DNA of 64,000 nucleotides, from assembly GCA_938014345.1 (NCBI GenBank), contig CALLSM010000036.1, positions 1,672 through 65,671 of the forward strand. The letters run 5' to 3'. Positions 18,824 to 63,876 of the stretch are shown in pieces. Position numbers and translations under genes: made by a program. The number at the start of each line of letters is the position of its first letter. Positions within the stretch are counted from its first letter, which is position 1. The notes under the pieces were generated by a model. The model saw only the letters and a program-made list of their open reading frames with translations, was not told the DNA's origin and made no database searches. Source of the DNA: an uncultured Succinatimonas sp. Its GTDB lineage: Bacteria; Pseudomonadota; Gammaproteobacteria; Enterobacterales; Succinivibrionaceae.

Positions 18824-19405
18824 ATGCTTTCATTTAATGTTTTAGACGACTTACGTGAGGAATATGCGGTTTTAGGTAATTTTATTGCCAAGCCCGATAC
18901 CCGTGAGTTGATTGAAAAGGCGATCGAGCTTATGGCCTCATCCTTAAAGGCTGAGGGCAAGATCATCTCCGCCGGTAATGGTGGCAGTATGTGCGATGCT
19001 CAGCATTTTGCCGAAGAACTCAGCGGCCGTTTTCGCGATGATCGCCCCGCTTATGCGGCCATTTCCATCTGCGATCCCTGTCATTTGACCTGTGTGGGCA
19101 ATGATTACGGCTTTGATTATGTCTTCTCCCGTTTTATGGAGGGTGTTGGCAAAAAAGGTGATGTCTTCTTAGGTATCTCTACCTCTGGCAATTCTAAGAA
19201 TATCATCGAGGCCTGCAAGGTCTGCAAAGAGCGCGGTATTAAGACCGTCTTATTATTAGGTAAGGATGGTGGCAAGCTTAAGGATGTCGGCGATGTCAAT
19301 CTCATCGTCCCGCATTGTGGTTATGCCGATCGTATTCAGGAAGTTCATACCATGATTATCCACATTATGATCCGTGGTATCGAGGAACTCATGGCTCAGG
19401 CCTAA
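18824..19405 (+). CDS. gmhA: Phosphoheptose (sedoheptulose-7-phosphate) isomerase, SIS domain
   Basis: GNGGSMCDAQHFAEELSGRF ... GISTSGNS ... ADRIQEVH matches GmhA better than DiaA. Length is 193 aa. Confidence 0.85.
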   Translation: MLSFNVLDDLREEYAVLGNFIAKPDTRELIEKAIELMASSLKAEGKIISAGNGGSMCDAQHFAEELSGRFRDDRPAYAAISICDPCHLTCVGNDYGFDYVFSRFMEGVGKKGDVFLGISTSGNSKNIIEACKVCKERGIKTVLLLGKDGGKLKDVGDVNLIVPHCGYADRIQEVHTMIIHIMIRGIEELMAQA

Positions 19406-19413
19406 TTTTAGAT

Positions 19414-19466
19414 GCGGATATTTTAATTTTGTTTAAATATCCGCACTATCTTCTTTATTTTTCAAG
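19414..19466 (+). terminator. Hairpin plus T-rich tract after gmhA
   Basis: The hairpin gcggatattt ... aaatatccgc is followed by ttctttatttttc. Confidence 0.55.
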
Positions 19467-19540
19467 CTTTTTCCCAAAACTTTCCGCAGTCTTTAAAGTC
19501 TTGTCGATTTATTTCCTAAGTTTTATTTTACAATTGTGTC

Positions 19541-19572
19541 GATAATTGTGATATTCACCACAAAATTATCGC
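19541..19572. promoter_or_regulatory. Imperfect palindrome about 30 bp upstream of the eptA-like start; candidate operator
   Basis: The sequence is cgataattgtg-N6-cacaaaattatcg. An adjacent acaattgt element at 19531-19538 is self-complementary. Confidence 0.3.
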
Positions 19573-19596
19573 TATTGTTAACTAGGTCTTAAATCC

Positions 19597-21249
19597 ATGC
19601 TAAATATAAAGTTTCCTTGGTATGCAGTTTTTTACGCTGTCGTTTTATATTTCTCTACCTTTTTAAATCAGCAGATCTTAAATCACTTCTATACCATCTT
19701 ATCTGATGCACCTAATGTCAGCACTTTATTCTATTTAACCCCGCCTTTAGTGCTGTTTTCAGCTTTAAGCTTAGTCTTTTTAGTTTTTAGCTCTAAATAT
19801 ATCTTCAAAGGCGTGATGGCCTTATTGATAGTCTCAGGTGCTTCTGTCGGTTATTTTGCTACTAAGTATGGCATCATCTTTGATTATGACATGATGATTA
19901 ACCTCATCTCTACTAATGTTGCTGAGGCGCGCGGTTATATCACCTTTGATTCGGTAATTGCGGTCTTTATCTATGGCTTAGTGCCAGCTGTGATCCTCTG
20001 TCTAATTAAGATTAAATGGCCTAAGTCTTTAGTGCGTGCGCTGTTACAGCGCATGGCGATAGCGGCAGTAGCCTTAGTGACCTTAGTAGCTATTGCTATT
20101 CCTTATTATCAAAATTATGCCTCGATAGGTCGCAATCACAGTATTTTGCGCAAGGAAATCTCTCCTTATAATTATGTCTATTATGGTTATAAGGCCCTAA
20201 AGCAGACCTATTTTCCGACGGTAGTTAAGTTTGATGCTTTTGGTTCTAAATCCTTTATCGACAATCCTGAGGAGCGTCCGGAGCTTTTTGTGGTAGTTGT
20301 AGGTGAGACTGCGCGAGCACAAAACTTTAAGCATAATGGTTATGCGCGCAATACTACTCCTTATACCGATAATCTCGATAATTTTGTGAAATTTGCTCCG
20401 GTAGAGAGTTGCGGTACCGCTACTGCTATATCGGTACCGTGTATGTTCTCTAGGCAAAATCGCGTCGATTATGATGAAGTGCGGGCACAAAACTCTAGTA
20501 ATCTTACCGATCTGCTTAAATATGCCGGTTATGATGTTTATTGGTATGACAATGACAGTGGCTGTAAGGGTGTCTGTAAGCGCATCAATAATGTCTTAAT
20601 TTCAAAAGATGATCCCAAGCTTCAGGGTAAATGTGGCGAGGATGGCTGTTATGATGAGGTACTCTTACCTTTGCTTAAAGAGCGTTTAGAGTTACAAGCG
20701 CAGAAGCAAAAGAGCACGATTATCTTTTTACATCTTATCGGCAGTCATGGTCCGACCTATTATGCCCGTGCTCCTGAGGATAAAAAGGTCTTTTTCCCTA
20801 CCTGCAATCGCGGTGATATTGAAAATTGTACACGCGAGGAGATCGTCAATGCTTATGACAATACCCTCGTCTATACCGATTATATACTGTCACAGGTAGT
20901 AGCTAAGCTTAAGCCCTATCAGGATAAGTTTGGTGTCGGTATGCTCTATATTTCCGATCATGGTGAGTCTTTAGGTGAGATGGGCTTATATCTGCATGGC
21001 TCTCCTTATGCTATCGCTCCTGAGGAGCAAAAGCGGGTGCCGCTTATGACCTATTTATCGCCATCCTTTATTGAGGATCATCATCTTGATATGCAGTGCT
21101 TACGCAATGAAGCTAAGTTATCTTTTAGTCACGATAACTTCTATCACAGTATGCTCGGTATCTTAGATGTGAACACTTCTTTCTATAATGACAAGCAAGA
21201 TCTGTTCTTAAAGTGCCGCATTTGGAAGAAGGGACCACATCAGGATTAG
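19597..21249 (+). CDS. eptA: Lipid A phosphoethanolamine transferase (EptA/PmrC/MCR family)
   Basis: There are five N-terminal transmembrane helices. The periplasmic sulfatase-like domain carries VVVVGETARA, CGTATA (nucleophilic Thr) and HLIGSHGP motifs. Length is 550 aa. Confidence 0.85.
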   Translation: MLNIKFPWYAVFYAVVLYFSTFLNQQILNHFYTILSDAPNVSTLFYLTPPLVLFSALSLVFLVFSSKYIFKGVMALLIVSGASVGYFATKYGIIFDYDMMINLISTNVAEARGYITFDSVIAVFIYGLVPAVILCLIKIKWPKSLVRALLQRMAIAAVALVTLVAIAIPYYQNYASIGRNHSILRKEISPYNYVYYGYKALKQTYFPTVVKFDAFGSKSFIDNPEERPELFVVVVGETARAQNFKHNGYARNTTPYTDNLDNFVKFAPVESCGTATAISVPCMFSRQNRVDYDEVRAQNSSNLTDLLKYAGYDVYWYDNDSGCKGVCKRINNVLISKDDPKLQGKCGEDGCYDEVLLPLLKERLELQAQKQKSTIIFLHLIGSHGPTYYARAPEDKKVFFPTCNRGDIENCTREEIVNAYDNTLVYTDYILSQVVAKLKPYQDKFGVGMLYISDHGESLGEMGLYLHGSPYAIAPEEQKRVPLMTYLSPSFIEDHHLDMQCLRNEAKLSFSHDNFYHSMLGILDVNTSFYNDKQDLFLKCRIWKKGPHQD

Positions 21250-21662
21250 AGCTTAGCGAAAATCTCGCCTTCAAGCTTTAAGATCGAGTTTAAGGCTAGA
21301 GAGATGCCCTGTGTAAGGTGGATAAAGCCTAAAGTAGTATCGATATTTTTAACAAAGCCTGAGGTAACGATATAATGGCCTCCGGCTTTTTTAGTATCAG
21401 GCTCAAAGCTTGTGATCTTGATAAAGGGCTTTTTATCTAAATGAGCCTTTAGAAAATTAAGGCGTAAATTGAGATCTTGCATACTCTCATCATCTAAGTG
21501 TTTAAAAGCAGTAGTCTCTCGTGAGGCTTCAATTATGGCCTCATCATGACCTGAGAGCGCATCAAAGGGTAAAAATTGCGCCGCACGTTCAGATTGCGTG
21601 AGCTTATGCACTATGCCGTCAAAGGGATAGGGGATATTGATGATATCGTCATAATTGCTCAT
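21246..21662 (-). CDS. YolD-like protein (proposed UmuD-equivalent accessory of Firmicute Y-family polymerases)
   Basis: The 138-aa protein has the motif SERAAQFLPFDALSGHDEAI, which matches the YolD-like family. It overlaps the polymerase stop by 4 nt. Confidence 0.6.
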   Translation of the reverse strand: MSNYDDIINIPYPFDGIVHKLTQSERAAQFLPFDALSGHDEAIIEASRETTAFKHLDDESMQDLNLRLNFLKAHLDKKPFIKITSFEPDTKKAGGHYIVTSGFVKNIDTTLGFIHLTQGISLALNSILKLEGEIFAKL

Positions 21663-23170
21663 GCCTTATGTCCTCCAATCTGCGCATTACGTTGTAGAGC
21701 AGTAGCACCTTCTTGTAGATCTGAGGCCTTAAAGACTGCATTTTTACCGTATTTATGCTTAAGATTTAACACGGCCTGCTGCAATTTACGCTCACGCTTT
21801 AAAGCTTGCGCTTTAAGTTCCTGCTTTTTTAATTCATCTTCATAATCAGTAAAGAGATCAAGTTGCCGGCCTTCACGCGGGTTTTCTATATAGGTATTTT
21901 CATCTTTAAGCTCGATAGCACAGAGATTGAGGCGGCGAATTAAGAGTAGCGGATTTACTAAGCGCTCAAATAATTTTAAGGCCGTCTCTACAATGAGACT
22001 ATCGGTATTACCGCATTGAGTTAAAGCCTCAGTGCCGTGGGCACTTTTAGGTACAGATCTACCATAGCGATCGCTCACAATTTCCCCTTTATAGCGTGAG
22101 GCGATATGGTGATTAGTGAGATTTTCGCGATCAAAACCCACTGTCAGCACGAGTTTTTGACAGACTAGATGCTTTTCAATGAGATTTAATGATAATTGTG
22201 AGGCCATCTCGCGCACCACTAAATGGGCCTTGTCATAAGGATAAGGACAGCTTAGGACCTGACCTTCACCTAAACTTTTGCGCTCGGGACGGATCTTTTT
22301 AATAGCGGCGATAGTGGTAGTTTCATAACCCCAAGCATGATCGATAAGCAATTCGGCATTGACGCCAAAGAGACGATAGAGCAGTGCTTGATTGTATAAA
22401 GAACAGCGGGCGACATCGCCCATAGTATAGATATTTACGGAAGCTAAACGTTTAGCATAACCTGGGCCTACGCGCCAAAAGTCGGTAATGGGGGTATAGG
22501 ACCAGAGGTATTGGCGATAATGCATTTCATCAAGTTTTGCTAAGCGCAAGCCCTTGTGATTAGGGCGAGCATGCTTAGCTAAGATATCCATGGCAATTTT
22601 GGCTAAATAAAGATTAGTGCCGATGCCGGCGGTAGCCGTAATACCGGTAGTCTCTAAAATCTCGCTGAGGACCTTTTCGGCAAGCTCCGAGGCTTTGAGA
22701 TTATAGTTTTTGACATAGGTGGTAGCATCGATAAAGACCTCATCTATAGAGTAGACATTGATATCAGTAGCTGAGAAATATTTAAGATAAATCTTATAGA
22801 TACGACTGCTGTAATCTAAGTAGAGCGCCATTTGTGGGGAGGCTACAATATAATCTATGGCATATTCAGGATGGTGCTTGATAAGACTTGCTACAGCGCT
22901 GCGATGCGTGAAGTTATGTGGCAGTTGCGCGCGCCTTTGATAATTGAGAGCGCGGACCTTTTGTACTACTTCAAAAAGGCGCGGCCTGCCGCTAATACCT
23001 AGAGCTTTAAGCGAGGGGCTGACTGCAAGACAGATGGTTTTTTCCGTGCGTGAGGCATCGGCGACTACTAAATGCGTATCGAGTGGATCTAAACCTCGCT
23101 CTACACATTCAACAGAGGCATAAAAGGATTTTAAGTCGATAGCGATATAGTAGCGACGCTCTGCATCCAT
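21659..23170 (-). CDS. Y-family (UmuC-like) translesion DNA polymerase, UvrX/YqjW (PolY2) type
   Basis: YIAIDLKSFYASVECVERGLDPLDTHLVVAD matches the PolY2 N-terminus. The SIDEVFID catalytic motif is present. Length is 503 aa. Confidence 0.8.
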   Translation of the reverse strand: MDAERRYYIAIDLKSFYASVECVERGLDPLDTHLVVADASRTEKTICLAVSPSLKALGISGRPRLFEVVQKVRALNYQRRAQLPHNFTHRSAVASLIKHHPEYAIDYIVASPQMALYLDYSSRIYKIYLKYFSATDINVYSIDEVFIDATTYVKNYNLKASELAEKVLSEILETTGITATAGIGTNLYLAKIAMDILAKHARPNHKGLRLAKLDEMHYRQYLWSYTPITDFWRVGPGYAKRLASVNIYTMGDVARCSLYNQALLYRLFGVNAELLIDHAWGYETTTIAAIKKIRPERKSLGEGQVLSCPYPYDKAHLVVREMASQLSLNLIEKHLVCQKLVLTVGFDRENLTNHHIASRYKGEIVSDRYGRSVPKSAHGTEALTQCGNTDSLIVETALKLFERLVNPLLLIRRLNLCAIELKDENTYIENPREGRQLDLFTDYEDELKKQELKAQALKRERKLQQAVLNLKHKYGKNAVFKASDLQEGATALQRNAQIGGHKA

Positions 23171-58256: not shown

Positions 58257-61200
58257 ATGAGCGAAATGCCAATTGCAATGAGAAATCTTGAAGCGGAGCT
58301 TATGAGTCATAAAGTCTCCGGTCTTTTAAAGATTTACCTCTTAAAATCTTTTTTTAATAATCTTTTTGTTGAGGTTAACTGTCAGGGCAATACCAATAAT
58401 ACCGGCAATAATGGTGCCGGTAAGACCTCGCTTTTAAGCTTGATTCCGATTTTCTATGGTGCTGAGCCTAATACTGTGGTCTCCCGTGAGGCGGGGAAAT
58501 CTTCCTTTGTGCAGTATTACTTACCCGCTAATGCCTCATTATTAGCCTTTGAGTATCTGCATTTAGGTGAAAAACGCTGTGTGCTTTTATATAGCCATGA
58601 GTCACAGCTTTACTATCGTTTTGTCGCTTGCAGTGGCAAGGAATTATTCTCTAAAGAGAATATGGAGGCGCATGCTGACTTTAACGATACCCGTGAGTGG
58701 CTTAAAGCCTTTGTCGCTAAAAAATATCCGACTAGTATTCAGCTCAATTCCACTATCGACTATCGCACCATTATTCAAAATGGCCGACAGCGCCTACTTA
58801 AAAATCGCCAGCAAAATATCGCCTTAGCACGTGAGTATTCTTTATGTTCAAGTGCCAAAGAAATGCAACATATGGGCGCTTTGACTGCGATTATGATCCG
58901 CAATAATCGCCTCTTAGAGCAATTGCGTATCATGCTTGTCGATTGCTATTTAGGCAATAGCATGCATATTGAAGTGCCAATTGTCGATGCGCAGAGCCTT
59001 AATAGTCAAACGCTACGGGCTATTTTAGAGGTGAAAAAGCAAGAGCCGAATTTACGTGCCGCGATTGCTAAAAGATCAAAGCTCAATGAGGATTTAGGCA
59101 AGGTTAAAGCTTGCTATAAGTATGTCTGCCGCTATCAGGACAGCATGCAAGAGCGGCGTGAGGTTTTAAAGCGCGAGCTTGAGACTTTTACGCAGAATTT
59201 AGAGCTTCTCAATGAGAGTTTTGAGCACAAGCGTCAGCATTTAGAACAGCAAAAATCGAGCTTAGACATTAAAGCTCAGCAATTAGCACAGGCTATTGAG
59301 GCTTTAGAGAAGAAGCGGGCTGAGTATGATGAGCTTGATATCAATAATGTGATCGCCCGTTATGATAATTTAGCCTCTTATCAGGAAGGAGAGCGCAGTG
59401 CTAAGGCGCATTATGACAGTATCAAGGCTTCACAAGATAAGCTTATCTCTGACTTTGACAGTAAGCGCCTGCTTCTTAATAAAGAGCATCAAAAGCATGT
59501 TGAGGACATCAATCAGGTATTAAAAAGCCTTGATGAGAAATTAAAGGCTTTGCAAGGCGAGCTTAATGATAAGAAAAATGCCGCGCGTTTAGCCTGTGAG
59601 CAGGAGCAAGAGGCCCGACGTCAAGAGCGTAATACGCATAAGCAAGATCTCAATGACAAGATCTTAGCTTTAAGCTCAAAAATTACTGAGCTCAAAAAGC
59701 CTACCGAGCTTGAAAGCAAGAAATTACAAGGCTTTGAAGCGACTATTGAGAGCTTAGAGGACAAGCTTAGTAAAAAACAAAAAGACTATATTGCTGTAAA
59801 TAAGCTTTTAGGGGCAAAAGACAAAGCTTTAGTTTCACTTAAAGATAAGCTTGAAAAAACTCAAAATAGAATCACTAAATTGTCTTTACATATTGAGGAT
59901 TTAAAGAGCAAGCTTAATCCGCAAAGTGGCTCCTTACAGGCTTTTTTAGAAGAGGCCCGTCCTTTATGGCGTGAGGATTTAGGTAAGATCATAAATCCAG
60001 AGCTGTTAAAGCGTGTCGATTTAAATCCCGCACTGCAGTCTAAAGAGCAGAGCCTCTATGGCTTAAGCCTTGATTATGGCGCAATTCAAACTCCTGAATA
60101 TCTTCTCAATATCGAGGAGCTCAAACGCATTTTAGAAGAAAAGCTTTTAGAGCTTAAGAGTGAGGATGAGAGTAAGGAGCGCCTCTTAGCTGATCACAAT
60201 AAGGCCGACAGAGAGTATAAAGAGCAAAAGGCTTTGCAATTGCAATTAGCCTCGGACTTAGAGAGTCTGCAAGGCGAGATTACGGCGCAAAAAAATGCCT
60301 TTAAGAGCTATAAGATGGAAGTTGAGCGCGAGAGCAATCTGCGCGCTGATAAGAGCTTAGAGGATTTAGTGGCTTTAAAACAGCAATTAGCTACTTTTGA
60401 TGTTAAGACTAAATCTCTTTTAAGTGAGATTAAACAAGAGCATTTAAATCATGAATTAGAGATTGCCGCCATCTTTGCACAAAAAGAAGAGCCGATTTTA
60501 GCGCATAAGCAATTAAAGGAAGATGAGCTCTCTTTTGAGAGCAATAATTATAAAAAGCGCAATGAGCAGTTAAATCAGGCTTGTGATGCCGCTTTAAGAC
60601 AAGAGGGTTTAGATCCTAAGATCGTGCGTGAGGCTCGCGATACTTATGAAAAGGCTCATGAAGAGGTTGAAAGTATTCAAAAAACTGAGCAATTAGTTAC
60701 TGAATACAAGGCCTGGGACAGCACACAGTGGCGGAGCTTTGATAAATTAAATGATGACCTGCGACAAAGCGAGCTGCAGCTTAATAACGTCAAGCATGCA
60801 TTACAGCAAGAGCAGGAGCAATTCAATCAAAAGTCGAATGTCATTAAGGTTAAATTAAAAGAATTAAGACGCGCTGATAAATATGCTGAGAGTGAGTATC
60901 AGACTTTAGAGAGTTGTCTGCAAAATGTTCTGCAGGCGGAAATTGATAGCATGAGTGCTACAATTGAAGCAGTTGATATCGATTATGTCGAGGTCGCCTT
61001 AGAGCTCAATAAGCTCGCCTCAGATCTCGTACGCAGTGCTAAAGCCTCACGTAAAGCTTTAGAAAATGCGGTTATATCCGTGAATAATATTCTGCAGGCA
61101 AGCCATAGCGATAATGTCATCGCTAAATCCTGGGAGGAGCTCTTAGCACATCGCCGCGAGAGCTTTGATGAAAGCGCTTATTATTCACAGGAATTTTATC

Positions 61201-61991
61201 TCTCCTGTGTTGATGATTTAGTGAAGCTTTTAGATGAGATTATCCCGCTTAATGAGCTTACGGTAATTGAGAGTGTGCGCACGGCTTCACAGAGCTTTAT
61301 GAATTTTTATGTAAGCTTAGAGGCCTTCAATAAGCGCGTGCAGAGCCTCTCTCGTGAGTTTGGTAAGCAGGTAGCTTTAGATAATCCTTTTAAGAGCTTA
61401 AGCGATATTCAAATTGAATTGCTCTCAAAAGTTGAGGAGCAGGATCTGTGGACACCTTTGCGCAACTTTGCCGATAAATTTACCGCCTATCAAGAGCAAG
61501 GGGGACAGGGGGCCCCGTCTCTTGATTTCTTAACGACCTTTGAGACTTTAAACTCAGTGCTCAAAAACTGCCATATTTCGGAGAATTTAGAGTCCTTAGT
61601 GTCATTGCGCATTTCATTGCGTGAAAATGGTCGTCAGGTGCAGATTAGATCCGATAGCGATCTCTCAGGTCTTTCAAGCCGCGGTATTTCTAAGCTCGCG
61701 ATTATCGTCATCTTCTGCGGTTTAACGCGTTATCTCTGTCAAGATCAGAATGTGCGTATTCATTGGCCCTTAGATGAATTAGGTGAGCTACATGAGGATA
61801 ATGTGGTCTTACTCTTTGAGCTTATGAATCGCAATAATATCGTACTCTTCTGTGCACAGCCTAATCCGTCGCCGTCTTTATTGCAGTACTTTGATACTAG
61901 CAATTATATCGACAAGAATAAGGGCGTGAAATTATGTGTGGATGCTAATATTTCCGCAGATAATCCGCTGTTAAGAATTTCTCAGGAGTAA
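58257..61991 (+). CDS. SMC-family ATPase of the MukB/MksB/JetC type (Walker A head, about 900 aa coiled coil, C-terminal signature and Walker B head)
   Basis: The N-terminus LLKIYLLKSFFNNLFVEVNCQGNTNNTGNNGAGKTSLL parallels the MukB head [33 protein letters not shown]. The C-terminus carries LSGLSSRGISKLAIIVIFCGL and IHWPLDELGEL. Confidence 0.8.
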   Translation: MSEMPIAMRNLEAELMSHKVSGLLKIYLLKSFFNNLFVEVNCQGNTNNTGNNGAGKTSLLSLIPIFYGAEPNTVVSREAGKSSFVQYYLPANASLLAFEYLHLGEKRCVLLYSHESQLYYRFVACSGKELFSKENMEAHADFNDTREWLKAFVAKKYPTSIQLNSTIDYRTIIQNGRQRLLKNRQQNIALAREYSLCSSAKEMQHMGALTAIMIRNNRLLEQLRIMLVDCYLGNSMHIEVPIVDAQSLNSQTLRAILEVKKQEPNLRAAIAKRSKLNEDLGKVKACYKYVCRYQDSMQERREVLKRELETFTQNLELLNESFEHKRQHLEQQKSSLDIKAQQLAQAIEALEKKRAEYDELDINNVIARYDNLASYQEGERSAKAHYDSIKASQDKLISDFDSKRLLLNKEHQKHVEDINQVLKSLDEKLKALQGELNDKKNAARLACEQEQEARRQERNTHKQDLNDKILALSSKITELKKPTELESKKLQGFEATIESLEDKLSKKQKDYIAVNKLLGAKDKALVSLKDKLEKTQNRITKLSLHIEDLKSKLNPQSGSLQAFLEEARPLWREDLGKIINPELLKRVDLNPALQSKEQSLYGLSLDYGAIQTPEYLLNIEELKRILEEKLLELKSEDESKERLLADHNKADREYKEQKALQLQLASDLESLQGEITAQKNAFKSYKMEVERESNLRADKSLEDLVALKQQLATFDVKTKSLLSEIKQEHLNHELEIAAIFAQKEEPILAHKQLKEDELSFESNNYKKRNEQLNQACDAALRQEGLDPKIVREARDTYEKAHEEVESIQKTEQLVTEYKAWDSTQWRSFDKLNDDLRQSELQLNNVKHALQQEQEQFNQKSNVIKVKLKELRRADKYAESEYQTLESCLQNVLQAEIDSMSATIEAVDIDYVEVALELNKLASDLVRSAKASRKALENAVISVNNILQASHSDNVIAKSWEELLAHRRESFDESAYYSQEFYLSCVDDLVKLLDEIIPLNELTVIESVRTASQSFMNFYVSLEAFNKRVQSLSREFGKQVALDNPFKSLSDIQIELLSKVEEQDLWTPLRNFADKFTAYQEQGGQGAPSLDFLTTFETLNSVLKNCHISENLESLVSLRISLRENGRQVQIRSDSDLSGLSSRGISKLAIIVIFCGLTRYLCQDQNVRIHWPLDELGELHEDNVVLLFELMNRNNIVLFCAQPNPSPSLLQYFDTSNYIDKNKGVKLCVDANISADNPLLRISQE

Positions 61992-62623
61992 TGAGCATGG
62001 CCGAGCGTTTTGAGTTATGTGTGGAAAAGCTCTTAGATGGTGAGGTTATCTGTGCCCTCACCGATAGCGATTTATTTGCTTATTTAGAGGATGAAGAACA
62101 GTTACAGAACGTCAATATGTGGCTGTTAAAGCTCCATCGGCGGGTGGCGCAAACTGCCGATAAGCGGGGTTTTTATTGCGTCTATAGCGATCTTAATGAT
62201 GATAGACGCAAGCGCTTAGTGCGCTTGCAATTTGAAGAGATTAGCCGCGATTTTGTAGGCTTAGTAGAATGGCTTCGTTTATGCCGTTCCATCTCACATG
62301 AGGCTCGTCCTATTGAAGCTGGCGATATCGTGCGCGAATCGGAGCTTTTAGCGGCGATTGAAAACTCGCAGACGCTAGCGGTGCAGCTTGAAGGTATTGC
62401 CGACAAATTTCAGCGCGCGAAAAACTCCACGATCAGCAATCGCCTGCGCTCGATTTTAGGCTATCTTGAAAATCAGGGCTATTTGCGCTTAAACAATACC
62501 TCAGGCTCAGTCTATACTGCCACCGCTAAATGGTCGCTTGTATACGATATGCTAGAATTTATCGCCTCCTGTGAGCTTCTAGATGACAATCAGGATACGG
62601 CAATACAGACGGAGCTCTTCTAA
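61991..62623 (+). CDS. Operon partner 1 (210 aa); possible KITE (MksE/JetB-like) subunit
   Basis: The start overlaps the upstream stop (taATGa) and the stop overlaps the next start. The size and an N-terminal LL.GEVI...D.DLF.YL motif are reminiscent of DUF4194, but the assignment is weak. Confidence 0.6.
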   Translation: MSMAERFELCVEKLLDGEVICALTDSDLFAYLEDEEQLQNVNMWLLKLHRRVAQTADKRGFYCVYSDLNDDRRKRLVRLQFEEISRDFVGLVEWLRLCRSISHEARPIEAGDIVRESELLAAIENSQTLAVQLEGIADKFQRAKNSTISNRLRSILGYLENQGYLRLNNTSGSVYTATAKWSLVYDMLEFIASCELLDDNQDTAIQTELF

Positions 62624-63876
62624 TGGCACGTAATGGCTCTCCGAAAACCGCTTTTAATCTTTTAAGCCGTAATTTTGAGCTTATAGAGCAGGCCTGTTAT
62701 GAAAATAACGGCGATATGCCATTAGGCGAGGACAATGCCTCTATTGAGGCCTTAGTGCGCAATCGCTTAGCTTATTATATCGATGATGAATTATGCGTGC
62801 GCGTGCATTCAAAGGTAAGAATGCTCGTCGATCATGTCTGCAGTCGCTTTCGCTTTCGTGAAAAACACGGTGAATTTGCCGCCCTTATCGATGCCTTAGA
62901 ATATGCTTTAGAGAGCTTTCATCGCGCGAAATTAAAGCCGCATGGGGATAATTATCAATTAGCCTTAGATGAGGTGCGTGAGGTGGTTTTAGATCTTACT
63001 GAGCTTCTAAGTGAGACGGTAAGCATGTATAACCATTTCGTTTTAGACGATTTCACCACAGCCTACGATCTCGATGAACGCATTTTCCAAACACAGCGCT
63101 GTAAAAACGAATTAGTGCAGATTAACGAGATCTTCATGCAGCTAAAGGTCGAGCAATTATTAGTGTGGGCAAGCTCTGATCCTATAGTAGATAATCTTTT
63201 GATGAAGATCTTCAAGCGTAAGCTTGATCGCTCTTTAAGTGAACTTAATATTGTCAATCAAAAGCTCATTGAGAGATTAGATAAATTGCACTTTGAAAAG
63301 CAGGTGCAAAGACGCAATCTGCTTTTAGATAGCTTTGCAAAAAAATATAAGGATAAGCTGCAATATACGCTAAGTGCAAAGCTGGTATCTTTTCCGCCGT
63401 CTTTAGCTTTAGCCGCTAGGCAAAATGTCTGCGCTTATGCTGATTTAGCTACTCCTAAGGAGAGTTATCAGGAGACTTTAGCTAAACTAGCCTCGCAAGT
63501 TAAAGCTAAAGTACAAAAACAAGCTAGTCCACAAGAGGAGAGCCCTGTTGCTGTCGTGGATGTGCGTGAGGAGAAGCTTGAAGTTAAGATCGATCTTGTC
63601 ATGCAGTATTTAGGCTATCTCTTTGAAGCGGTACTTAGCGATGATTATAAAGAAGATATTTCAGCCGTGGCCTGTTATAAGGCTTTTTGTGCAAAAGAGC
63701 CGCTCTTAGCTGAGAGAATTAAGCTTCAAGATTGGCTGTTTTTGGTAATGACTGAGAGCATGCATAAAAAGCGCATGATAAGACGCCATGCTCTTTATGA
63801 AGAGTGGGGCTTTTATGATGAAGTCTTTAAGGACACAGCCTTAGTTGGGGATATTGTATTTAAAAAGCTCAGGTAG
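62623..63876 (+). CDS. Operon partner 2 (417 aa); possible kleisin (MksF/JetA-like) subunit, unknown function
   Basis: The gene is translationally coupled (taATGg). The protein is helical and acidic with no recognisable catalytic motif. Its size is compatible with a kleisin. Confidence 0.55.
   Translation: MARNGSPKTAFNLLSRNFELIEQACYENNGDMPLGEDNASIEALVRNRLAYYIDDELCVRVHSKVRMLVDHVCSRFRFREKHGEFAALIDALEYALESFHRAKLKPHGDNYQLALDEVREVVLDLTELLSETVSMYNHFVLDDFTTAYDLDERIFQTQRCKNELVQINEIFMQLKVEQLLVWASSDPIVDNLLMKIFKRKLDRSLSELNIVNQKLIERLDKLHFEKQVQRRNLLLDSFAKKYKDKLQYTLSAKLVSFPPSLALAARQNVCAYADLATPKESYQETLAKLASQVKAKVQKQASPQEESPVAVVDVREEKLEVKIDLVMQYLGYLFEAVLSDDYKEDISAVACYKAFCAKEPLLAERIKLQDWLFLVMTESMHKKRMIRRHALYEEWGFYDEVFKDTALVGDIVFKKLR

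What the first reader, a model, noticed from the sequence alone, without database searches (positions are those of the whole stretch)
19406..21249. EptA/MCR-family phosphoethanolamine transferase in an AT-rich insert, with a palindromic candidate operator
The 550-aa product has the transmembrane plus sulfatase-like architecture and the catalytic Thr motif (CGTATA) of lipid A PEtN transferases. Chromosomal and mobile members of this family (MCR) confer polymyxin and colistin resistance. The gene follows a roughly 190-bp AT-rich spacer with its own terminator upstream. It has an imperfect palindrome (cgataattgtg-N6-cacaaaattatcg, 19541-19572) just before the start codon. This palindrome is not the direct-repeat architecture of PmrA or PhoP boxes, so regulation may differ from the enteric paradigm.
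Basis: partly seen in the sequence, partly recalled or inferred. Interest (0 to 1): 0.5.

Follow-up and report, generated by a model that had tools for sequence, protein, structure and literature searches.

The report
Chromosomal EptA lipid A phosphoethanolamine transferase
This is an ordinary, vertically inherited chromosomal gene for a lipid A phosphoethanolamine transferase (EptA type, a distant cousin of the MCR colistin-resistance enzymes) in an uncultured Succinatimonas-like gut bacterium; it is not an inserted or mobile gene, and the palindrome upstream of it is not conserved.

Summary
The ORF at 19597-21249 (+) encodes a 550-aa EptA-family phosphoethanolamine (PEtN) transferase. It has the EptA_B_N membrane domain and a sulfatase-fold domain. 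It passes NCBIfam's lipid A PEtN-transferase cut-off and keeps all eight MCR-1 active-site residues, including the nucleophile Thr276, plus ten conserved Cys. On a tree it sits in a Succinivibrionaceae clade (bootstrap 99) next to MCR-3/4/7/9/10, apart from EptB and CptA.

It is not an MCR. Identity to any MCR is at most 45.6%, no MCR model reaches its cut-off, and no plasmid in PLSDB carries anything 60% or more identical.

The "AT-rich insert" reading is wrong. The order rnhA-dnaQ-gmhA-eptA-138aa-polY-purM is conserved in at least five Succinatimonas-type species. Gene GC and GC3 are within about 1.5 sd of neighbouring genes, and the spacer GC is typical of intergenic DNA here.

About 5% of shuffled spacers give an equal one. 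Its right arm is mutated without compensation in a 97%-identical strain and is absent from every other orthologous promoter.

What is conserved is a 24-nt block of two 12-nt direct repeats over the -35 region. Several relatives instead carry a PmrA-box-like TTAAC-N6-TTAAC repeat. Interest is low.

The parts
18824..19405 (+). Upstream gene gmhA (D-sedoheptulose-7-phosphate isomerase, LPS heptose pathway). Context only; not part of an eptA operon by the evidence below.
   Evidence: SIS_2 domain. NCBIfam TIGR00441 gmhA scores 217.1 against a cut-off of 209.45. It is adjacent to eptA in L001, L002, L003, L013, L043 and L047.
19413..19462 (+). Terminator-like hairpin after gmhA (stem 19413-19426 / 19432-19445) followed by a T-rich tail, CTATCTTCTTTATTTTT.
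   Evidence: 14-nt arms, 93% complementary. RNA fold -15.7 kcal/mol, z = -5.56, 0 of 200 shuffles as stable. Relatives have GC-rich hairpin plus T-run terminators of different sequence at the same place (L001/L002/L013).
19527..19555 (+). Best promoter-like site for eptA: -35 TTTACA (19527-19532), 17-nt spacer, TG-extended -10 GATATT (19550-19555). Inferred, not shown.
   Evidence: Consensus scan gives 9 of 12 with TG. The scan finds 10 such sites in 3.1 kb against 7.1 expected, so on its own this is weak.
19525..19548 (+). The only upstream block conserved with the 79% species: ATTTTACAATTGTGTCGATAATTG. It is made of two 12-nt direct repeats, TTTACAATTGTG (19527-19538) and TCGATAATTGTG (19539-19550), 9 of 12 identical. 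It is also readable as ACAATT-N8-AATTGT.
   Evidence: 21 of 24 identical to L001. 0.05% of 2000 shuffles reach this, while synonymous sites are saturated (dS about 2.3). It is unchanged in strain L019 except 19529 T>A. AATTGT-N6-AATTGT occurs once in the 64-kb window. It is absent from L002, L013, L047, L043 and L003.
19540..19571 (.). It overlaps the -10-like hexamer. The left arm is simply the second copy of the conserved direct repeat.
   Evidence: 10 of 11 complementary. 5% of shuffles match it. The right arm is hit by 19569 T>G and 19571 G>A in L019-L022 with no compensating change. It is not conserved in L001 or any other orthologue. As RNA it folds at -10.3 kcal/mol, z = -2.2.
19577..19593 (+). 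GTTAAC-TAGGT-CTTAAA: a TTAA-N7-TTAA repeat with PmrA-box geometry, 4-20 nt before the ATG and so inside the likely 5' UTR. Significance is ambiguous.
   Evidence: One mismatch to TTAAC-N6-TTAAC. My rough chance expectation is about 4% per spacer. The position is wrong for a -35-replacing activator box.
19597..21249 (+). eptA: a 550-aa lipid A phosphoethanolamine transferase. The N-terminal membrane domain runs to about residue 205 and the periplasmic sulfatase-fold domain covers residues 231-525.
   Evidence: Pfam PF08019 plus PF00884. NF028537 scores 548.1 against a cut-off of 500. Full-length match to NmEptA 5fgn, E = 5.6e-110, residues 18-542. dN/dS is 0.07 against the strain variant. The exact protein is on 23 metagenome contigs.
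20422..20424 (+). Codon of Thr276, the predicted catalytic nucleophile (equivalent to MCR-1 T285 and NmEptA T280).
   Evidence: Alignment columns. E237, K324, H384, D454, H455, E457 and H467 are also conserved.
21246..21662 (-). Convergent 138-aa ORF whose stop codon overlaps the eptA stop. No intergenic terminator separates the two genes.
   Evidence: ORF list. No Pfam or NCBIfam hit. The pair is conserved next to eptA in all syntenic loci.

Best explanation
The ORF at 19597-21249 is the resident chromosomal eptA of an uncultured Succinatimonas-like bacterium (Succinivibrionaceae, Aeromonadales) from gut metagenomes.

Mechanism, inferred by homology. The protein is an inner-membrane enzyme with an N-terminal helical membrane domain and a periplasmic sulfatase-fold domain. 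Thr276 sits at a Zn site formed by E237, D454 and H455, with H384, H467, K324 and E457 nearby. It takes phosphoethanolamine from phosphatidylethanolamine as a covalent intermediate. It then passes it to a lipid A phosphate. This lowers the negative surface charge and the binding of cationic peptides such as host defensins and polymyxins.

Origin, shown. The gene is inherited vertically and is under purifying selection.

Transcription, inferred. The gene is transcribed on its own. A hairpin terminator follows gmhA. A sigma-70-like promoter (TTTACA-17-GATATT) lies 42-70 nt before the ATG.

Regulation, inferred. It is probably not an operator. The 24-nt direct-repeat block over the -35 region is the better candidate for a regulatory or promoter element.
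For: Domain architecture and curated family cut-off. Full-length similarity to the NmEptA crystal structure. All eight MCR-1 active-site residues and ten Cys conserved.

NJ tree, 300 bootstraps: Succinivibrionaceae clade 99, grouping with MCR-3/4/7/9/10 at 79, separation from EptB 93 and from CptA 100.

Synteny across species. The same locus is found in 23 or more metagenome contigs. dN/dS is 0.07. Composition is within the local range. No plasmid relative reaches 60% identity.

Terminator hairpin z = -5.6. Promoter-like site. Conserved 24-mer, P about 0.0005. Right arm of the palindrome mutated or absent in orthologues.
Against: No biochemical or phenotypic data exist. The substrate (lipid A 1- or 4'-phosphate rather than another acceptor) is inferred from family placement only.

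The protein does not reach the E. coli EptA equivalog cut-off (519.6 against 660), so it is a distinct subfamily.

The promoter call is a weak consensus match (9 of 12) with no transcription start data. The Shine-Dalgarno sequence is weak (AGG at -14 to -12).

The palindrome is rarer than average (5% of shuffles) and overlaps the -10. A species-specific operator therefore cannot be excluded from two strains alone.
Confidence: 0.85

Rival explanations
1. The palindrome 19540-19571 is a true operator for a dimeric repressor that covers the -10 and start site of the eptA promoter. This would give the species a non-PmrA mode of control.
For: A 10 of 11 inverted repeat, found in only 5% of shuffled spacers and 1% within the last 80 nt. 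It overlaps the -10-like hexamer. The left arm lies inside the conserved block.
Against: In the 97.3%-identical strain, 2 of the 10 spacer substitutions fall in the 11-nt right arm and break the two outer pairs with no compensation. The right arm is not alignable in the 79% species and the whole element is missing from the 75%, 67% and 62% species. No HTH regulator gene lies next to the locus. The left arm's conservation is explained by the direct repeat it belongs to.
Confidence: 0.1
2. The gene is a horizontally acquired, potentially mobile MCR-like resistance determinant sitting in an AT-rich island.
For: ORF GC is slightly low (0.408 against a mean of 0.447, about 1.5 sd). The nearest named relatives are the MCR-9 and MCR-3 families.
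Against: The position between gmhA and the 138aa/polY/purM genes is identical in five or more species, with EptA identity of 62-79%. GC3 is within 0.6 sd. There are no flanking repeats, tRNA, transposase or integrase. Identity to every MCR is at most 45.6% and no PLSDB plasmid holds a homologue of 60% or more. The protein tree follows taxonomy, with Succinivibrionaceae next to the Aeromonas, Shewanella and Buttiauxella-derived MCR-3/7, MCR-4 and MCR-9/10.
Confidence: 0.03
3. The enzyme decorates a target other than lipid A, such as inner-core Kdo or heptose, a flagellar rod protein, or pilin, in the manner of EptB, CptA/EptC or PptA.
For: It is adjacent to gmhA, a heptose-pathway gene. Members of the wider family are known to be promiscuous (C. 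jejuni EptC; 4tn0 matches at 8.6e-71). The E. coli EptA equivalog cut-off is not reached.
Against: Scores to EptB (163.5 against 493) and CptA (118.6 against 404) are far below cut-off, while the lipid A transferase domain model is passed. It branches with EptA and MCR enzymes of proven lipid A activity. K324 matches MCR-1 K333 and is not conserved in EptB or CptA.
Confidence: 0.1

Closest known systems
Neisseria meningitidis EptA (LptA), PDB 5fgn / 4kav
   Same: Full-length alignment of residues 18-542, E = 5.6e-110. Same two-domain architecture, catalytic Thr, metal ligands and ten Cys in the soluble domain. Like NmEptA it is a stand-alone chromosomal gene with no adjacent two-component system.
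   Different: The two are substantially diverged: the full-length match scores 372 bits, and the window protein falls in a separate Succinivibrionaceae clade (NmEptA was not in the tree). The host is a gut anaerobe and no functional data exist.
MCR-9 / MCR-3 / MCR-10 / MCR-4 mobile colistin-resistance enzymes and their Buttiauxella, Aeromonas and Shewanella chromosomal progenitors
   Same: These are the nearest named relatives: 45.6% (MCR-9), about 43% (MCR-3, MCR-10) and 41.9% (MCR-4) by tblastn. They share a clade at bootstrap 79. The active site is identical.
   Different: The window gene is not mobile and not on plasmids. It scores less than half of every MCR-specific cut-off (for example 554 against 1075 for MCR-3-related). 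There is no downstream dgkA as seen beside mcr-3 and no wbuC as beside mcr-9.
E. coli / Salmonella EptA (PmrC) in the PmrA-controlled eptA-basRS operon
   Same: Same enzyme family (40.1% identity; NF008619 519.6 bits).
   Different: It is below the equivalog cut-off of 660. No basRS follows the gene, and no response regulator or kinase homologue was found in the 64-kb window. The E. coli promoter carries CTTAAG-N5-CTTAAT (L040:101-117). The window promoter has only one degenerate half-site at -35. Several Succinivibrionaceae relatives do have TTAAC-N6-TTAAC.

Membership tests
Lipid A phosphoethanolamine transferase (EptA/MCR superfamily; NCBIfam NF028537) | N-terminal EptA_B_N membrane domain followed by a sulfatase-fold catalytic domain | tested here: met
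   PF08019 covers residues 53-204 (E = 2.8e-41) and PF00884 covers residues 231-525 (E = 1.5e-59). Hydrophobic segments lie within residues 43-173. The alignment to full-length NmEptA covers residues 18-542.
Lipid A phosphoethanolamine transferase (EptA/MCR superfamily; NCBIfam NF028537) | Score above the curated family cut-off | tested here: met
   548.1 bits against a cut-off of 500.
Lipid A phosphoethanolamine transferase (EptA/MCR superfamily; NCBIfam NF028537) | Catalytic Thr nucleophile and metal or substrate ligands (MCR-1 E246, T285, K333, H395, D465, H466, E468, H478) | tested here: met
   The window residues are E237, T276, K324, H384, D454, H455, E457 and H467.
Lipid A phosphoethanolamine transferase (EptA/MCR superfamily; NCBIfam NF028537) | Branches with EptA/MCR and not with EptB or CptA/EptC | tested here: met
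   NJ tree with 300 bootstraps: EptB excluded at 93 and CptA at 100. EptB model 163.5 against 493; CptA model 118.6 against 404. OpgE was not included in the tree.
Lipid A phosphoethanolamine transferase (EptA/MCR superfamily; NCBIfam NF028537) | Adds PEtN to lipid A phosphate and raises polymyxin MIC | not testable with these tools
   Needs lipid A mass spectrometry and MIC measurement.
MCR (mobile colistin resistance) families MCR-1 to MCR-13 | Score above a family-specific NCBIfam cut-off, or high identity to a named allele | tested here: not met
   The best is the MCR-3-related model at 554.2 against 1075. All others are further below. Identity is at most 45.6%.
MCR (mobile colistin resistance) families MCR-1 to MCR-13 | Carried on a plasmid or transposon, or otherwise mobilised | tested here: not met
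   Chromosomal synteny is conserved. There are no flanking repeats or tRNA. All 1937 plasmid hits are below 60% identity.
E. coli-type EptA equivalog (NCBIfam NF008619) | Score above the equivalog cut-off | tested here: not met
   519.6 against 660.
PmrA-box promoter (two NTTAAN hexamers separated by 5 nt, replacing the -35 element; PMC10570014) | Complete direct repeat at the -35 position of the eptA promoter | tested here: not met
   At the -35 position the window reads TTTTAC-AATTG-TGTCGA (TTTAAC in strain L019), so only one half-site is present. No TTAAC-N6-TTAAC occurs in the 64-kb window. A TTAA-N7-TTAA at 19577-19593 lies in the 5' UTR. Seven relatives do carry the full box.
Palindromic repressor operator | Both arms conserved, or co-varying, in orthologous promoters | tested here: not met
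   The right arm is mutated in L019-L022 without compensation and absent in L001, L002, L013, L047, L043 and L003.

The most novel reading that the evidence does not exclude
Across Succinivibrionaceae, eptA may travel with a portable PmrA-box-like direct repeat, TTAAC-N6-TTAAC. It is present upstream of eptA in seven loci with different genomic contexts. It also occurs upstream of a Na/Pi-cotransporter gene next to eptA in Ruminobacter-type loci. This would imply an undescribed PmrA/PhoP-like envelope regulon in these strictly anaerobic gut and rumen commensals. The window's lineage (window, L019, L001) would then have replaced the downstream half-site with a 12-bp-period AATTGT repeat. That would mean eptA regulation has been rewired or made constitutive in this species.
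Probability: 0.25. Interest if true: 0.35.

Novelty: new member of a known kind. Interest (0 to 1): 0.15.

Why it matters
The finding adds one more chromosomal "intrinsic" PEtN transferase to a family already catalogued widely in gut metagenomes (PMC8296556, PMC10285318). Its practical value is as a negative. Resistome screens may label this gene "MCR-3/9-like". It is in fact a core, non-mobile gene of a commensal and should not be counted as mobile colistin resistance.

The Succinivibrionaceae clade is a neighbour of the Aeromonas, Shewanella and Buttiauxella lineages from which MCR-3/7, MCR-4 and MCR-9/10 were mobilised. It is therefore a conceivable but so far unused reservoir.

The direct-repeat boxes seen in relatives offer a small, testable lead on envelope-stress regulation in a poorly studied family.

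Tried and rejected
1. CRP-like site. The palindrome centre reads TGTGA-N6-CCACA (19547-19562) and L001 has TGTTA-N6-TCACG in register. Each species has only one good half-site and the other orthologues have none. I dropped it as unsupported.

2. RNA element in the spacer. There is no Rfam match at E <= 1. The palindrome as an RNA hairpin reaches only z = -2.2, and z = -1.0 in an 81-nt context. It would be largely upstream of the predicted start site.

3. Mobile-element signatures. No flanking direct or inverted repeats beyond chance length were found. There are no tRNA genes in the window.

4. Distal second operator. The right-arm 13-mer has a perfect reverse complement inside the ORF (CGATAATTTTGTG, 20376-20388). 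That copy is not conserved in L001, L002, L013 or L043, so I treat it as chance.

5. Linked regulator. Nine ORFs of 208-255 aa in the window gave no response regulator. tblastn with the response regulator and kinase from L055 found nothing in the window. Neighbours of eptA in L007, L011 and L014 are unrelated housekeeping genes.

6. Literature on Succinatimonas or Succinivibrionaceae together with eptA, colistin or mcr. Nothing specific was found.

7. A first bootstrap run with Biopython timed out. I replaced it with a numpy implementation.
Full report
**What is at the coordinates.** The region 19406-21249 holds a 191-nt spacer and one ORF, 19597-21249 on the + strand, 550 aa.

The product has the Pfam EptA_B_N domain (residues 53-204) and the Sulfatase domain (residues 231-525). 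It scores 548.1 bits on NCBIfam NF028537, "phosphoethanolamine--lipid A transferase", whose cut-off is 500.

No more specific model is passed:

| Model | Score | Cut-off |
|---|---|---|
| MCR-3-related | 554 | 1075 |
| MCR-9 | 535 | 1240 |
| E. coli EptA equivalog | 519.6 | 660 |
| EptB | 163.5 | 493 |
| CptA | 118.6 | 404 |

The best solved structure is full-length Neisseria meningitidis EptA (5fgn), E = 5.6e-110, aligned over residues 18-542.

In a MAFFT alignment with MCR-1, -3, -4, -5, -8, -9, -10, E. coli EptA and EptB, Salmonella CptA and A. baumannii PmrC, all eight MCR-1 active-site residues are present. They are E237, T276, K324, H384, D454, H455, E457 and H467. The ten soluble-domain cysteines are also conserved.

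**Placement among EptA, MCR, EptB and CptA.** tblastn against 72,556 plasmids found 1937 records, all below 60% identity:

| Relative | Identity |
|---|---|
| MCR-9 | 45.6% |
| MCR-3 | about 43% |
| MCR-10 | 43.3% |
| MCR-4 | 41.9% |
| MCR-8 | 40.7% |
| E. coli EptA | 40.1% |
| MCR-5 | 35.1% |
| MCR-1 | 31.1% |
| CptA | 24% |

I built a neighbour-joining tree from 33 sequences and 540 columns, using Kimura distances and 300 bootstraps. The window protein falls in a clade made only of Succinivibrionaceae-type proteins (bootstrap 99). That clade sits inside a group with MCR-3, -4, -7-related, -9 and -10 (79). EptB is excluded at 93 and CptA at 100. OpgE was not in the tree.

**Whose gene it is, and whether it is an insert.** The nearest proteins in a 5.8-billion-protein collection are as follows:
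- 98% (P0001);
- 79% (uncultured Succinatimonas);
- 75-76%, then 57-67% (Succinatimonas, Succinivibrio and Succinivibrionaceae MAGs);
- 45-47% (Aeromonas, Buttiauxella).

The exact protein is on 23 metagenome contigs with the same neighbours. The gene order rnhA, dnaQ, gmhA, eptA, a 138-aa ORF, a Y-family polymerase-like gene, purM and DUF2066 is conserved in L001, L002, L013, L003, L043 and L047. In these species EptA identity runs from 79% down to 62%. The downstream half of that order is kept even in L044 (65%), where the upstream genes differ.

Composition does not mark the gene out:
- ORF GC is 0.408 against 0.447 +/- 0.025 for 41 ORFs, and GC3 is 0.414 against 0.439 +/- 0.042.
- The spacer's GC of 0.288 lies among the 20 intergenic gaps of the window (median 0.317).
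- No flanking repeats beyond chance length and no tRNA genes are present.
- dN/dS against the 97%-identical strain is 0.07.

The gene is a vertically inherited, selected core gene. The "AT-rich insert" reading is rejected.

**The spacer.** A 14-nt-arm hairpin (19413-19445) folds at -15.7 kcal/mol (z = -5.6) and is followed by a T-rich stretch. Relatives have canonical GC-rich terminators of unrelated sequence at the same place. Independent transcription of eptA is therefore plausible. The best promoter-like site is TTTACA (19527) - 17 nt - GATATT (19555) with an upstream TG. Such 9-of-12 matches are near chance density, so this is an inference.

**The palindrome.** It is real but mis-described. 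The best ungapped form is CGATAATTGTG / CAAAATTATCG, 10 of 11 complementary with a 10-nt spacer. Five percent of 2000 dinucleotide-preserving shuffles of the spacer contain an equally good inverted repeat.

Conservation fails:
- In strain variant L019-L022 (97.3% identical over 5.3 kb), ten substitutions fall in the spacer. Two of them, 19569 T>G and 19571 G>A, break the outer pairs of the right arm. The left arm does not change.
- In the 79% species the right arm is not alignable.
- In the 75%, 67% and 62% species the whole element is missing.
- No protein clusters lie between 98% and 79% identity. No intermediate relatives are available to test further.

**What is conserved instead.** A 24-nt block (19525-19548) matches L001 at 21 of 24 positions. 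Only 0.05% of shuffles reach this, although synonymous sites between the two species are saturated. The block consists of two tandem 12-nt repeats, TTTACAATTGTG and TCGATAATTGTG. In L001 they read TTAACAATTGTA and TTGATAATTGTT. The block spans the -35 hexamer and the spacer of the predicted promoter.

**Relatives have direct-repeat boxes.** An exact TTAAC-N6-TTAAC on the coding strand lies 80-300 nt upstream of eptA in L003, L007, L008, L011 (= L052), L014, L043 and L048. L044 has it with one mismatch. These loci have several different genomic contexts. In about 231 kb of related loci, the looser pattern NTTAA[C/T]-N5-NTTAA[C/T] gives 13 hits in total on both strands. Seven of those 13 are these sites upstream of eptA. 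Two more are exact TTAAC boxes just downstream of eptA in L010 and L053, about 95 nt upstream of a Na/Pi-cotransporter gene.

The geometry is that of the pmra-box: two hexamers with a TTAA core, separated by 5 nt and overlapping the -35 element (PMC10570014). As a control, the E. coli eptA upstream region shows CTTAAG-GTTGG-CTTAAT (L040:101-117). One relative (L055) has an OmpR-family regulator and a HAMP_PhoQ kinase 1.1 kb upstream of eptA.

The window has no such box in 64 kb and no homologue of that regulator. At the aligned position it keeps only the first half-site: TTTTAC in the window, TTTAAC in L019 and L001. A GTTAAC-TAGGT-CTTAAA lies at 19577-19593, directly before the ATG, and its meaning is unclear.

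The family context, however, points to direct-repeat control that has decayed or been rewired in this lineage, and gives no support for a palindromic operator.

**Mechanism and confidence.**
- Shown: family membership, active-site conservation, vertical inheritance, purifying selection, and non-conservation of the palindrome.
- Inferred from the established chemistry of EptA and MCR enzymes: Thr276 takes PEtN from phosphatidylethanolamine and transfers it to a lipid A phosphate. This lowers the binding of cationic peptides.
- Not shown: the acceptor site, any polymyxin phenotype, the transcription start, and any regulator.

**Novelty.** Chromosomal "MCR-like" or intrinsic PEtN transferases are already known to be widespread in gut MAGs and across 256 genera (PMC8296556, PMC10285318). 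I found nothing specific on Succinatimonas. This is a new member of a known kind, and the interest is low.

Noticed in passing
window 21246-23170 (-): A 138-aa ORF with no Pfam or NCBIfam hit is translationally coupled to a divergent 503-aa Y-family polymerase-like gene (start overlaps its stop). That gene has an IMS domain, and its best DinB model scores 156 bits against a cut-off of 381. The pair is conserved in all syntenic Succinatimonas loci. The motif ERAAQFLPFDALSGH recalls YolD-like (UmuD-equivalent) proteins. That resemblance is from memory only and was not tested.
   Followed up: partly
window 21246-21249: The stop codons of eptA (+) and the 138-aa ORF (-) overlap, so these convergent genes have no intergenic terminator. 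The overlap is kept in L001, L002 and L019 but opens to 5-34 nt in L043 and L044.
   Followed up: partly
L003:5828, L007:5801, L008:1717, L011:5848, L014:1324, L043:2922, L048:2276: An exact TTAAC-N6-TTAAC direct repeat with PmrA-box geometry lies upstream of eptA in seven Succinivibrionaceae loci with different genomic contexts. It is almost absent elsewhere in about 231 kb of those loci.
   Followed up: partly
L010:4134 and L053:4414: In Ruminobacter-type loci the same TTAAC-N6-TTAAC box lies downstream of eptA and about 95 nt upstream of a Na/Pi-cotransporter/PhoU gene. L053 also has two tandem eptA paralogues of 577 and 564 aa.
   Followed up: no
L055:4608-6847: An OmpR-family response regulator and a HAMP_PhoQ histidine kinase lie 1.1 kb upstream of the eptA orthologue P0020 (62%), separated from it by a DUF2786 gene. 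This locus has no TTAAC box. It shares an AACTTT-N7-AACTTT repeat with L016 and L017.
   Followed up: no
P0033 (49% homologue): This Succinivibrionaceae-clade homologue has the catalytic Thr replaced by Ala, the MCR-1 K333 equivalent by His and the H395 equivalent by Arg. It is possibly an inactive paralogue.
   Followed up: no
L016, L017: Contigs whose records are titled 'Firmicutes bacterium CAG:534' and 'Bacteroidaceae bacterium' encode EptA proteins 62-64% identical to the window's and of Succinivibrionaceae type. This is probably MAG mis-binning or mislabelling.
   Followed up: no
window 20376-20388: CGATAATTTTGTG inside the eptA ORF is the perfect reverse complement of the palindrome's right arm (19559-19571). 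It is not conserved in other species, so it is probably chance.
   Followed up: yes
window 58257-63876 (+): Three ORFs are coupled by overlapping starts and stops: a 1244-aa DUF3584 protein, a 210-aa protein with a weak MksE hit (E = 8.8e-7), and a 417-aa protein with no family. This looks like an Mks-type condensin or a related system.
   Followed up: no
window 18824-19405 (+): gmhA, the first step of LPS heptose synthesis, lies immediately upstream of eptA and keeps that position in Succinatimonas-type genomes. The two envelope genes are neighbours but are separated by a terminator-like hairpin.
   Followed up: partly
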